Made by a program: the position numbers | Shown: piece by piece, positions 20,201 to 22,077 of the stretch | Numbering within the stretch: the first letter of the stretch is position 1 | Layout of the letters: each line of letters opens with the position of its first letter | From: Escherichia coli | GTDB taxonomy: Bacteria; Pseudomonadota; Gammaproteobacteria; Enterobacterales; Enterobacteriaceae | Length of the DNA stretch: 64,000 bases | Strand: one strand, 5' to 3' | Assembly (NCBI RefSeq): GCF_013315695.1 | Contig: NZ_CP054353.1

Positions 20201-22077
20201 GCAACTTCAATTCTGTTTTGCGTGCCTGCTCCAGATTTTGCGATGTTTTTTTGCCCAGCACACTGAGAACGTGAGATACTCACAACTGTATATAAATACA
20301 GTTACAGATTTACTTTCTTTGCAATCGATATCACATGGAGTGGGCAATGAACGAACATCATCAACCTTTTGAAGAGATACGGCATTATGGCACTGAAGGG
20401 CAAGAATTTTGGTCAGCGAGAGAATTGGCACCGTTACTGGATTATCGGGACTGGCGCAATTTTCAAAAGGTACTGGCCCGCGCGACTCAAGCGTGCGAAG
20501 CCAGCAATCAAGCTGCATCTGACCATTTCGTTGAAACCACCAAAATGGTTGTATTAGGTTCAGGGGCTCAACGAGAACTTGAAGATGTTCATCTCTCCCG
20601 CTATGCCTGTTACCTGGTAGTACAAAACGGCGACCCTGCGAAACCGGTTATTGCGGTAGGGCAAACTTATTTTGCTATCCAGACCCGACGGCAGGAGCTG
20701 GCTGACGATGAAGCTTTCAGGCAACTTCGTGAAGACGAAAAGCGTCTTTTTCTGAGAAATGAGTTGAAAGAACATAACAAACAATTAGTTGAGGCAGCGC
20801 AGCAGCTGGGGTAGCGACAGCTATCGATTTCGCCATATTTCAGAATCATGGTTACCGGGGACTGTATGGTGGATTAGATCAGAAAGCCATCCATCAGCGG
20901 AAGGGGCTGAAAAAGAGTCAGAAGATCCTGGATCATATGGGTTCAACAGAACTGGCGGCTAATCTCTTTCGAGCTACCCAAACAGAAGAAAAACTCAAGC
21001 GGGATGGCGTGAATTCAAAACAGCAAGCTAACACCACACACTTTGACGTGGGTCGCAAGGTGAGGCAAACCATTCAGGAACTTGGCGGAACCATGCCTGA
21101 GGAGTTGCCGACCCCGCAGGTCAGCATCAAGCAGTTGGAAAACAGTGTAAAAATTACAGAGAAAAAATAGCAGAAACTAAAAGCTCTTTTTGATGATTGA
21201 GACACCCGATGCGTAAGCCAAGGTCCAGGTGCGGTGAACACAATGGCTAAACATTGCACCTTTCTTTTCCACCCTCAATTTTAACCTATTTTTTCTTATG
21301 CATTTTCTCAGACAAGAAGTCAGAAGAATACATCTACGCTACAGAAAATAGCGATTTCACATAACTAAAAGTTATCAATTTCCTCTCACCTTAAAAAATC
21401 TCAATCGTGACAATACGCACAAATCGCTACCCTGCCAGACAGATTTTTAGGGAGAGAACCATGCTGTTACACATTTTGTATTTGGTTGGCATTACTGCCG
21501 AAGCCATGACGGGGGCGCTGGCGGCCGGACGACGGCGCATGGATACATTTGGCGTAATTATTATTGCGACCGCCACCGCAATTGGCGGAGGGTCAGTGCG
21601 CGATATTCTGCTGGGCCACTATCCGCTCGGCTGGGTCAAACACCCGGAATATGTGATTATTGTCGCTACCGCCGCAGTACTCACCACTATCGTTGCTCCT
21701 GTAATGCCTTACCTGCGCAAAGTGTTTCTGGTGCTCGATGCGCTCGGACTGGTGGTCTTTTCTATCATTGGCGCACAGGTTGCACTGGATATGGGACACG
21801 GCCCGATCATTGCCGTTGTCGCAGCTGTGACGACCGGCGTATTTGGCGGCGTTTTGCGCGATATGTTCTGTAAACGCATCCCGCTGGTATTCCAGAAAGA
21901 ATTGTATGCCGGTGTCTCATTTGCCTCCGCCGTGCTGTACATCGCGCTGCAACACTATGTTTCTAACCATGATGTGGTAATTATCTCCACCCTGGTATTC
22001 GGCTTTTTTGCCCGCTTACTGGCGCTACGCCTTAAGCTGGGATTACCGGTCTTTTACTACAGCCACGAAGGTCACTA

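What the first reader, a model, noticed from the sequence alone, without database searches (positions are those of the whole stretch)
20790..20815. dinD reading frame interrupted while its LexA box is retained
The DinD N-terminal frame ends at TAG 20812-20814 and the C-terminal part continues in another frame. The whole span is 824 nt, one nucleotide short of the 825 nt needed for a 274-aa protein, consistent with a single-base deletion near ...CAGCAGCTGGGGTAGCG.... The upstream SOS operator is intact. This is either a genuine strain-specific pseudogene or a homopolymer sequencing error.
Basis: seen in the sequence. Interest (0 to 1): 0.4.

Follow-up and report, generated by a model that had tools for sequence, protein, structure and literature searches.

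The report
Frameshifted dinD pseudogene, SOS box intact
A single missing A breaks the DNA-damage-inducible gene dinD in this E. coli clone; the mutation is real, inherited and already flagged as a pseudogene in related public genomes, so the finding is ordinary.

Summary
dinD spans window 20347-21170 and is 824 nt. Frame 0 stops at TAG 20812-20814, and the remaining 119 codons continue in the -1 frame. The LexA box (20284-20303) is identical to that of K-12.

It is one A of codon 153 (CAA), between 20804 and 20805, not a G of the GGGG run.

It is not a sequencing error:
- The same deletion is in all 5 RefSeq complete genomes of this clone (UK, Australia, USA). PGAP marks each "frameshifted".
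- The window is none of these five genomes, and it has no indel against MSB1_4I apart from one IS1 insertion.
- The exact 155-aa truncated product is indexed in 2217 blocks of public assemblies.

The result is a young loss-of-function allele. It can still give an SOS-inducible Bro-N-only fragment and lacks the C-terminal module.

dinD is dispensable and often lost: about 13% of complete E. coli genomes lack it, and 6% carry an in-frame 222-bp deletion. Rescue by -1 ribosomal slippage at G_GGG_UAG is formally possible but found no support.

Side observation: ISL3-family elements (ISEc53, ISKox3) repeatedly insert exactly into the 8-bp core of LexA boxes (dinD, umuD, sbmC, a plasmid dinI-umuDC operon).

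The parts
20284..20303 (+). dinD LexA (SOS) operator AACTGTATATAAATACAGTT, intact. Its 8-bp core ATATAAAT (20290-20297) is the empty target site that ISEc53 or ISKox3 occupies in relatives.
   Evidence: It is identical to the K-12 box. PMC3009722 lists this box and confirms LexA-dependent induction of dinD. IS junctions in relatives are shown.
20337..20340 (+). GGAG Shine-Dalgarno-like sequence 6 nt upstream of the dinD ATG.
   Evidence: Read directly from the sequence; the assignment is an inference. It is invariant between the window, LR-28 and K-12.
20347..20814 (+). dinD 5' reading frame: 153 native codons, then Leu-Gly, then TAG. It encodes a 155-aa product that carries the whole Bro-N domain (aa 10-103).
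   Evidence: Pfam PF02498 matches with E 2.4e-11. NF008573 matches at 285 bits over model positions 6-160.
20804..20805 (+). Site of the 1-nt deletion: one A of codon 153 CAA is lost (CAGCAAGCT becomes CAGCAGCT).
   Evidence: Alignments A1 and A2. The junction 44-mer is found in only 5 of 5426 complete genomes.
20808..20814 (+). G_GGG_TAG: the premature stop lies directly after a G run. A -1 slip of the tRNA-Gly here would restore the native frame and give DinD with only an A154L change.
   Evidence: Read from the sequence; the slip is an inference. It is judged unlikely because G_GG.G is not shifty in E. coli (PMC4066793) and there is no downstream structure.
20811..21170 (+). dinD 3' remnant in the -1 frame: 119 codons plus TAG, with no start codon of its own before ATG 20937. 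Gene callers report a 77-aa ORF at 20937-21170.
   Evidence: NF008573 model positions 161-279 match at 202 bits. The 77-aa gene is called in public assemblies.
20800..20807 (+). First copy, damaged here, of the 9-bp direct repeat CAGCAAGCT. The second copy lies at 21021-21029. Recombination or slippage between the two copies gives the in-frame 222-bp dinD deletion found in 343 other genomes.
21021..21029 (+). Second copy of the 9-bp direct repeat CAGCAAGCT.
21122..21137 (+). CAGCATCAAGCAGTTG, a 16-nt stretch complementary to tisAB RNA. It is retained in the untranslated 3' remnant.
   Evidence: Sequence. The complementarity is described in PMC2577331; that paper demonstrated no effect on dinD mRNA.
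20106..20126 (+). Last 21 bp of yicC. This stretch is duplicated at the ends of a ~17-kb integrase-bearing island in MS 21-1 (L009); AF10 and AF14 carry a related island at the same position. It is unoccupied in the window.

Best explanation
This is a genuine, vertically inherited single-nucleotide deletion: one A of codon 153, CAA, is lost between window 20804 and 20805. It arose once on the branch leading to a tight E. coli clone whose closest other complete genomes include SMS-3-5, and it is fixed in that clone. The deletion shifts the dinD frame by -1, so translation ends two codons later at TAG 20812-20814. Because the LexA operator, the Shine-Dalgarno-like sequence and the start codon are untouched, DNA damage should still induce the transcript (inferred, not measured). 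Its product would be a 155-aa fragment consisting of the N-terminal Bro-N module, and the conserved C-terminal module (aa ~148-274) is not made. Functionally it is a loss-of-function allele of a dispensable SOS gene. The operator is retained because the lesion is young, not because it is being preserved. Apart from one SNP in one genome, the 824-nt remnant is identical in all 12 copies examined. In half of those copies the operator has already been split by an ISL3-family insertion.
For: Exactly one gap separates the window from the intact alleles, and the two halves match the DinD equivalog model end to end. The junction 44-mer occurs in 5 of 5426 complete genomes: AF3, AF10 and AF14 from UK blood, MSB1_4I from Australia and MS 21-1 from the USA. 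All five are annotated 'frameshifted' by PGAP. The window differs from each of them: 7 SNPs and one extra IS1 against MSB1_4I, and 14 SNPs, one gap and the same IS1 against AF3. It is therefore a further independent assembly, and it has no indel against MSB1_4I in 63 kb apart from that IS1. Six genomes show 0-11 SNPs and no indel over 18.4 kb. Only those five complete genomes are at least 99% identical over window 14000-30000; the next best are 98.9%. The exact 155-aa product is indexed in 2217 blocks of public assemblies, including NCTC genomes. The remnant is identical in 11 of 12 copies, and the LexA box is intact in 6 and split by an IS in 6. The gene is dispensable: 'dispensable for growth' in PMC2577331. 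In complete genomes, 713 of 5426 have no dinD match, the locus being replaced by a 77-bp spacer in the example examined. A further 343 of 5426 carry an in-frame 222-bp deletion, and at least 61 have an IS in the operator. The frameshift falls at the start of the C-terminal module, which PADLOC models match separately (aa 148-269 against aa 4-121).
Against: No reads were available, so the base call in the window's own assembly is supported only by agreement with independent assemblies. No expression or protein data exist for this allele. That the fragment is inactive is an inference, because the Bro-N domain is complete and could retain some activity. Fixation in a widely sampled clone is compatible with neutrality or hitch-hiking but does not exclude selection.
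Confidence: 0.9

Rival explanations
1. Sequencing or assembly error: the strain really has an intact 825-nt dinD and the assembler dropped a base.
For: The lesion is a single-base indel, the commonest type of long-read error. No reads could be inspected.
Against: The lost base is in an AA dinucleotide, not a long homopolymer. The same deletion is in five other complete genomes from different laboratories and countries, in NCTC and other assemblies, and in 2217 index blocks. About 100 genomes share at least 99% identity across dinD but keep the A, so the local sequence context does not cause a systematic error. The window has no indel against MSB1_4I in 63 kb apart from one IS1 insertion.
Confidence: 0.01
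2. Recoding: ribosomes slip -1 on CUG_GGG_UAG, with the P-site tRNA-Gly re-pairing on G_GG next to a slowly decoded stop. This would make full-length DinD carrying only A154L, so the gene remains functional at a reduced level.
For: The geometry is exact. GGGG at 20808-20811 is followed by TAG, and the -1 codon after the slip is GTA, the native Val156. A GAGG lies 13 nt upstream. Leaky decoding of frameshift mutants at runs next to stops is a known phenomenon, reviewed in PMC5009743, which appears in the listing but was not opened here; the statement rests on my own knowledge.
Against: In the systematic E. coli survey, G_GG.G tetramers were not frameshift-prone, and their signal was attributed to spurious initiation. 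Tetramers without a stimulator gave about 0.15% (PMC4066793). There is no downstream structure: the minimum free energy is -14.3 kcal/mol and the z-score is -0.2. The arrangement exists only in one clone and is not conserved. It was created by the deletion itself, not selected over time.
Confidence: 0.03
3. The truncated allele is functional and selected. The SOS-induced stand-alone Bro-N fragment would have a new or dominant-negative activity (for example on RecA filaments or on phage), or loss of DinD itself would be advantageous to this clone.
For: The Bro-N domain, promoter, operator and RBS are all intact in the window. The allele is fixed in a clone that is common in public assemblies. 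DinD matches a candidate phage-defence family (PADLOC PDC-S13, E 1e-124), and its two halves occur as separate modules elsewhere. Its Bro-N segment is strongly dimorphic in E. coli.
Against: In half of the clone members examined, the operator and promoter region is split by a 1.9-kb IS without any compensating change, which argues against selection for expression. There are far too few substitutions to test for purifying selection: 1 SNP in 12 copies. dinD is lost in several other ways across the species, as expected for a dispensable gene.
Confidence: 0.06

Closest known systems
E. coli K-12 dinD (b3645; NCBIfam equivalog NF008573, DNA damage-inducible protein D)
   Same: The locus is the same (yicC-dinD-yicG-ligB) and the LexA box is identical. 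The length is the same apart from 1 nt. The protein is 84% identical to K-12 DinD overall and almost identical from aa 84 onward.
   Different: A one-nucleotide deletion at codon 153 gives a 155-aa product instead of 274 aa. The window also carries the non-K-12 variant of the Bro-N segment (aa ~12-83, about 50% identity to K-12).
PGAP-annotated 'frameshifted' dinD pseudogenes of E. coli AF3, AF10, AF14, MSB1_4I and MS 21-1
   Same: The 824-nt sequence and the deletion junction are identical, and the chromosome is more than 99.9% identical over the regions compared.
   Different: AF10, AF14 and MS 21-1 additionally have ISEc53 in the LexA box and a ~17-kb island at the yicC 3' end. The window has neither, but it has its own IS1 in eilA.
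Other natural dinD loss alleles in E. coli
   Same: They inactivate or remove the same dispensable SOS gene. The 222-bp deletion uses the very 9-bp repeat (CAGCAAGCT) in which the window's deletion lies.
   Different: Those alleles are a whole-locus replacement by a 77-bp spacer (example L012; 713 genomes have no dinD match), an in-frame 74-codon deletion (343 genomes), or IS insertions in the operator (at least 61 genomes). None is a frameshift.
rph-1 of E. coli K-12 (single-base deletion pseudogene about 1 kb upstream of yicC)
   Same: It is a lineage-specific 1-nt deletion that truncates a non-essential gene in the same chromosomal neighbourhood. K-12 rph is annotated 'truncated RNase PH', while rph is intact in this clone.
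   Different: It is a different gene and lineage. rph-1 has a known polar effect on pyrE (established knowledge). No downstream effect is evident or tested here.
Programmed or leaky -1 frameshift sites (dnaX, IS3/IS911; Z_ZZN tetramers)
   Same: A Z_ZZN tetramer (G_GGG) lies at the end of the 0-frame ORF, with overlap into the -1 ORF.
   Different: The motif belongs to the inefficient class, there is no stimulatory structure, and the site is not conserved. It works like an ordinary frameshift mutation.

Membership tests
DinD (NCBIfam NF008573 equivalog) | Sequence match to the family model above the curated cutoff (242 bits) | tested here: met
   The N-terminal ORF alone scores 285 bits over model positions 6-160. 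The 3' remnant scores 202 bits over positions 161-279. The intact relative scores 504 bits.
DinD (NCBIfam NF008573 equivalog) | Uninterrupted reading frame of about 274 codons | tested here: not met
   The frame is broken at codon 153 by a 1-nt deletion, with a stop at 20812-20814. It is therefore a pseudogene of the family, not a functional member.
DinD (NCBIfam NF008573 equivalog) | Chromosomal position between yicC and yicG | tested here: met
Bro-N domain proteins (Pfam PF02498) | Domain match above the gathering score (25.6 bits) | tested here: met
   44.6 bits over aa 10-103 of the truncated ORF.
LexA regulon (SOS genes) | CTGT-N8-ACAG operator in the promoter region | tested here: met
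   AACTGTATATAAATACAGTT at 20284-20303 is identical to K-12 dinD. The box and the LexA dependence are in PMC3009722.
LexA regulon (SOS genes) | LexA binding and damage-inducible transcription in this strain | not testable with these tools
   This needs RT-qPCR or a reporter after mitomycin C or UV treatment in the clone.
Programmed -1 ribosomal frameshift genes | Slippery motif in the overlap of the two frames | tested here: met
   G_GGG at 20808-20811, directly before TAG.
Programmed -1 ribosomal frameshift genes | Motif of an efficient class, and/or a stimulatory downstream structure | tested here: not met
   G_GG.G was not frameshift-prone in E. coli (PMC4066793). The downstream 70 nt fold no better than shuffles (z -0.2).
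Programmed -1 ribosomal frameshift genes | Conservation of the two-frame arrangement among diverged homologues | tested here: not met
   Only 5 of 5426 complete genomes, all from one clone, have it. The intact alleles examined (LR-28 and K-12) are single-frame.
PADLOC candidate defence system PDC-S13 | Sequence match to the PDC-S13 model | tested here: met
   The intact DinD of LR-28 and of K-12 matches PDLC04919 end to end (E 1e-124 and 2e-121).
PADLOC candidate defence system PDC-S13 | Demonstrated anti-phage activity | not testable with these tools
   No paper in the library mentions PDC-S13. The family is only a candidate.

The most novel reading that the evidence does not exclude
The allele may not be dead. 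Under this reading, SOS induction in this clone yields a stand-alone Bro-N fragment. It might also yield a trace of full-length DinD(A154L) made by -1 slippage at G_GGG_UAG. The altered DinD output would change RecA-filament control or phage interaction in a way that helped the clone spread. DinD's end-to-end match to a candidate phage-defence family (PDC-S13), and the strong dimorphism of its Bro-N segment, leave room for a defence-related role that nobody has tested.
Probability: 0.05. Interest if true: 0.35.

Novelty: already known. Interest (0 to 1): 0.12.

Why it matters
As it stands, the finding matters little. It is a correctly spotted, real pseudogene of a non-essential SOS gene, and RefSeq already flags the identical allele as 'frameshifted' in sister genomes.

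It has three modest uses. First, it is a clean single-site marker for a globally distributed clone, seen in human blood, gut and colon isolates. Second, it adds to evidence that dinD is an accessory, frequently discarded member of the LexA regulon: absent in about 13% of complete genomes, with the 222-bp deletion in 6% and an IS in the operator in at least 1%. That is relevant to anyone using dinD as an SOS reporter or assigning it a core role in RecA regulation. Third, it warns annotators that the 155-aa and 77-aa ORFs called in thousands of assemblies are two halves of one broken gene.

The more interesting by-product is outside the finding: ISL3-family elements appear to use LexA operators as preferred insertion sites.

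Tried and rejected
- **Homopolymer error in the G-run:** rejected, because the GGGG run is unchanged and the lost base is an A.
- **Window drawn from one of the matching RefSeq genomes** (which would make the agreement circular): rejected, because it differs from each by SNPs and by an IS1.
- **-1 programmed frameshift:** the motif is present, but it is of an inefficient class, has no stimulator and is not conserved.
- **Re-initiation to make a C-terminal fragment:** the first in-frame start is ATG 20937, giving 77 aa, with no obvious Shine-Dalgarno sequence. This was considered unlikely and not pursued.
- **Promoter and terminator consensus scan of 20100-21450:** it found nothing, fewer hits than in shuffles, so it was uninformative about the dinD promoter or a dinD-yicG terminator.
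- **Primary DinD papers** (Uranga 2011, PMC3190988; Ohmori 1995, PMC176568): not held in the library. DinD function is cited second-hand from PMC4849656 and PMC2577331.
- **Sequence type of the clone:** the literature search on strain names failed, and no MLST locus lies in the window.
- **Solved structures:** the PDB has no DinD relative by sequence. Structure prediction was not run because it would not change the verdict.
- **Literature on PDC-S13, and on ISL3 with LexA targeting:** nothing found.

Full report
**1. The observation**

The window carries the K-12-like gene order rph, yicC, dinD, yicG, ligB, gmk. dinD starts at ATG 20347, preceded by GGAG. Frame 0 runs for 155 codons to TAG 20812-20814. 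The frame beginning at GTA 20811 runs to TAG 21168-21170 and encodes the rest of DinD.

The whole span 20347-21170 is 824 nt. The two pieces match positions 6-160 and 161-279 of the NCBIfam DinD equivalog model NF008573, so nothing is missing except the reading frame. The LexA box AACTGTATATAAATACAGTT lies at 20284-20303 and is identical to that of K-12. That box and the LexA dependence of dinD are documented in PMC3009722.

**2. Where the base was lost**

I aligned the window with the closest intact allele (strain LR-28, 99.8% identical) and with K-12. There is a single gap: intact GCG CAG CAA GCT GGG GTA against window GCGCAGCA-GCTGGGGTAG.

- The missing base is one A of codon 153 (CAA), between window 20804 and 20805.
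- The GGGG run at 20808-20811 is the same length in intact and broken alleles.
- Residues 1-153 are native, followed by Leu-Gly and a stop.

**3. Real mutation or sequencing artefact**

A 44-nt probe was centred on the junction so that every 28-mer spans it. It hits 5 of 5426 RefSeq complete E. coli genomes: AF3, AF10 and AF14 (UK, blood), MSB1_4I (Australia, rectal swab) and MS 21-1 (USA, colon). PGAP marks dinD as 'frameshifted' in all five.

The window is none of these genomes.
- Against MSB1_4I it differs by 7 SNPs and no indel.
- Against AF3 it differs by 14 SNPs and one gap.
- In addition, it alone carries an IS1 in eilA.

Across 18.4 kb the six genomes differ by 0-11 SNPs and no indel. 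Over window 14000-30000, only these five complete genomes are at least 99% identical. The next best, SMS-3-5 and others, are 98.9%. So every sampled member of the clone has the deletion.

About 100 genomes share at least 99% identity across dinD and keep the A. The local sequence is therefore not a systematic error site.

The exact 155-aa product is indexed in 2217 blocks of a public-assembly index, including NCTC genomes. Among 12 copies examined, the 824-nt remnant is identical in 11 and has one SNP in the twelfth.

The deletion is therefore genuine, arose once, and is inherited.

**4. What it does**

Pfam places the Bro-N domain at aa 10-103, wholly inside the truncated ORF. PADLOC models match the N-terminal part (aa 4-121) and the C-terminal part (aa 148-269) separately. 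This indicates two modules, and the frameshift at residue 153 falls at the start of the second.

With the operator, Shine-Dalgarno sequence and start codon unchanged, the transcript should still be SOS-inducible. It would yield a ~17-kDa Bro-N-only fragment. This is an inference, because no expression data exist.

The literature gives the following on DinD:
- It is cited as one of the regulators that ensure removal of RecA filaments. Uranga et al. 2011 is cited in PMC4849656; the primary paper is not held.

The most likely consequence is therefore simple loss of a non-essential function.

The 16-nt stretch complementary to tisAB RNA (21122-21137) survives in the untranslated remnant. The paper that described it could not show any effect on dinD mRNA.

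**5. Why the LexA box is retained**

The lesion is young. There is essentially no further decay in the remnant or its upstream region, so retention needs no selective explanation.

Six of the 12 clone copies examined have already lost the operator. In five of them an 1885-bp ISEc53 (transposase plus a ClbS/DfsB passenger) sits exactly between CTGT and ACAG, with the core ATATAAAT duplicated. The sixth, L018, has a hybrid junction without the IS (see section 9). This argues against selection to keep the broken gene inducible.

**6. Species context**

dinD is a variable locus in complete E. coli genomes.

| State of dinD | Genomes (of 5426) |
|---|---|
| No match to the dinD query; in the example examined, window 20127-21286 is replaced by an unrelated 77-bp spacer | 713 (~13%) |
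| In-frame 222-bp deletion between two 9-bp direct repeats CAGCAAGCT | 343 (~6%) |
| ISL3-family IS in the operator, one orientation only | at least 61 (~1%) |
| The 1-nt deletion described here | 5 |

The first of the two 9-bp repeats is the site of the window's deletion; the second lies at window 21021-21029. A frameshift allele in one clone is therefore unremarkable.

**7. The recoding alternative**

The deletion happens to create CUG_GGG_UAG. A -1 slip of the tRNA-Gly on G_GGG would put GTA (native Val156) in the A site. The product would be a 274-aa protein differing only by A154L.

I tested what could be tested.
- The systematic E. coli survey found G_GG.G tetramers not frameshift-prone. 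Tetramers without a stimulator gave about 0.15% (PMC4066793).
- The 70 nt downstream fold no better than shuffled sequence (z -0.2).
- The arrangement is confined to one clone.

Rescue above trace level is unlikely.

**8. Comparison with known things, and novelty**

The object is a pseudogene of the DinD family. It meets the sequence, synteny and operator criteria and fails the intact-frame criterion. The identical allele is already annotated as a frameshifted pseudogene in RefSeq.

It works like any lineage-specific single-base-deletion pseudogene. K-12's own rph-1, about 1 kb from yicC, is the classic neighbour; one search shows K-12 'truncated RNase PH', whereas rph is intact in this clone.

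Novelty: already known. Interest: low.

**9. Things seen on the way**

*(a) ISL3-family elements and LexA boxes.* ISEc53 (1885 bp) and ISKox3 (1316 bp) sit exactly in the N8 core of CTGT-N8-ACAG LexA boxes, with the N8 as the target-site duplication.

| LexA box | Observation |
|---|---|
| dinD | at least 61 genomes; both IS types, and both orientations seen |
| Chromosomal umuDC | at least 32 genomes from diverse lineages |
| sbmC | both orientations (Nissle and PBP8; NCCP 15734) |
| Plasmid dinI-umuDC operon (pSK1144) | one case |

The one non-LexA site in my small sample is the fimB insertion, seen in EC958 (ST131), AZ167 and 21437, with flank AAAG|TGTATATA.

One assembly, L018, even joins the left half of the umuD box to the right half of the dinD box without an IS. 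I found no paper linking ISL3 elements to LexA targets. This deserves its own study, but it is not a property of the window, whose dinD box is the empty site.

*(b) Possible defence link.* Intact DinD matches the PADLOC candidate defence family PDC-S13 end to end. It also matches the first 267 positions of a 717-position Type I specificity-subunit model.

*(c) Dimorphic Bro-N segment.* dinD has two forms in E. coli. About 215 bp (aa ~12-83 of the Bro-N domain) is only about 50% identical between K-12-type and window-type alleles, while the flanks are 97-100% identical.

*(d) Strain-specific IS1.* The window has its own IS1 (57019-57786, 9-bp duplication CCAAAAGTT) interrupting the ETT2 regulator gene eilA.

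*(e) Island in relatives.* Relatives carry a ~17-kb integrase island at the 3' end of yicC; in MS 21-1 window 20106-20126 is duplicated at its ends.

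Noticed in passing
window 20290-20297 (empty site); L009 17623-19507, L014 1237-2552, L022-L029; umuD, sbmC and plasmid loci in other genomes: ISL3-family elements ISEc53 (1885 bp, carrying a ClbS/DfsB passenger gene) and ISKox3 (1316 bp) insert exactly between the CTGT and ACAG half-sites of LexA operators and duplicate the 8-bp core. This is seen at dinD (at least 61 of 5426 complete genomes), chromosomal umuDC (at least 32), sbmC (both orientations) and a plasmid dinI-umuDC operon. The only non-LexA site in a small sample was fimB (EC958/ST131 and two other genomes). No paper in the library links ISL3 elements with LexA boxes.
   Followed up: partly
L018 1430-1457 (GCA_964039125.1): A hybrid junction, ...TACTGTATATAAAA|ATATAAATACAGTT..., joins the hlyE-umuD upstream region to dinD with no IS between them. 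It looks like the left half of the umuD LexA box fused to the right half of the dinD box, with both target duplications kept. This suggests an IS-mediated rearrangement followed by loss of the IS, or a misassembly.
   Followed up: no
window 20377-20590 (alignment A2 columns ~150-363): dinD has two forms in E. coli. A ~215-bp segment inside the Bro-N domain (aa ~12-83) is only about 50% identical between K-12-type and window-type alleles, while the flanks are 97-100% identical. About 2750 complete genomes have the window type and about 1950 the K-12 type. The pattern suggests cassette-like recombination or diversifying selection.
   Followed up: partly
intact DinD (L003 3118-3939; L004 2761-3582): Intact DinD matches the PADLOC candidate single-gene phage-defence family PDC-S13 end to end (E 1e-124). 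It also matches the N-terminal 267 positions of a 717-position Type I restriction specificity-subunit model. The N- and C-terminal halves match separate models. No literature on PDC-S13 was found.
   Followed up: partly
window 20127-21286; L012 1065-1141; L013 1737-1742: 713 of 5426 complete E. coli genomes have no dinD match; in the example examined, the whole 1160-bp dinD segment is replaced by an unrelated 77-bp spacer. A further 343 carry an in-frame 222-bp deletion between two 9-bp direct repeats CAGCAAGCT (window 20800-20807 and 21021-29), which PGAP annotates as an intact 200-aa DinD.
   Followed up: yes
window 57019-57786: An IS1 element (InsA and InsB ORFs, 23-bp terminal inverted repeats, 9-bp target duplication CCAAAAGTT at 57010-18 and 57786-94) interrupts eilA, the HilA-family regulator of the ETT2/eip type III secretion island. 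It is absent from AF3 (where eilA is frameshifted instead) and from MSB1_4I (where eilA is intact).
   Followed up: partly
window 20106-20126; L009 463-17430: In MS 21-1 (L009), a ~17-kb phage-satellite-like island is integrated at the 3' end of yicC, with these 21 bp duplicated at its ends. It carries an integrase, an AntA/B antirepressor, a DUF5906 primase-like gene and PerC. AF10 and AF14 carry a related island, which also has an Abi gene, at the same position. The site is unoccupied in the window.
   Followed up: partly
window ~60157-61781: The window-versus-relative BLAST shows a ladder of ~291-bp tandem repeats at 82-87% identity inside the 7-kb inverse autotransporter adhesin gene iatC.
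   Followed up: no
window ~45774-46075 (mapped from AF3 annotation): tRNA-Sec (selC) is followed by a 129-bp internal fragment of a rhuM-family gene, which looks like a scar of a former selC-integrated island.
   Followed up: no
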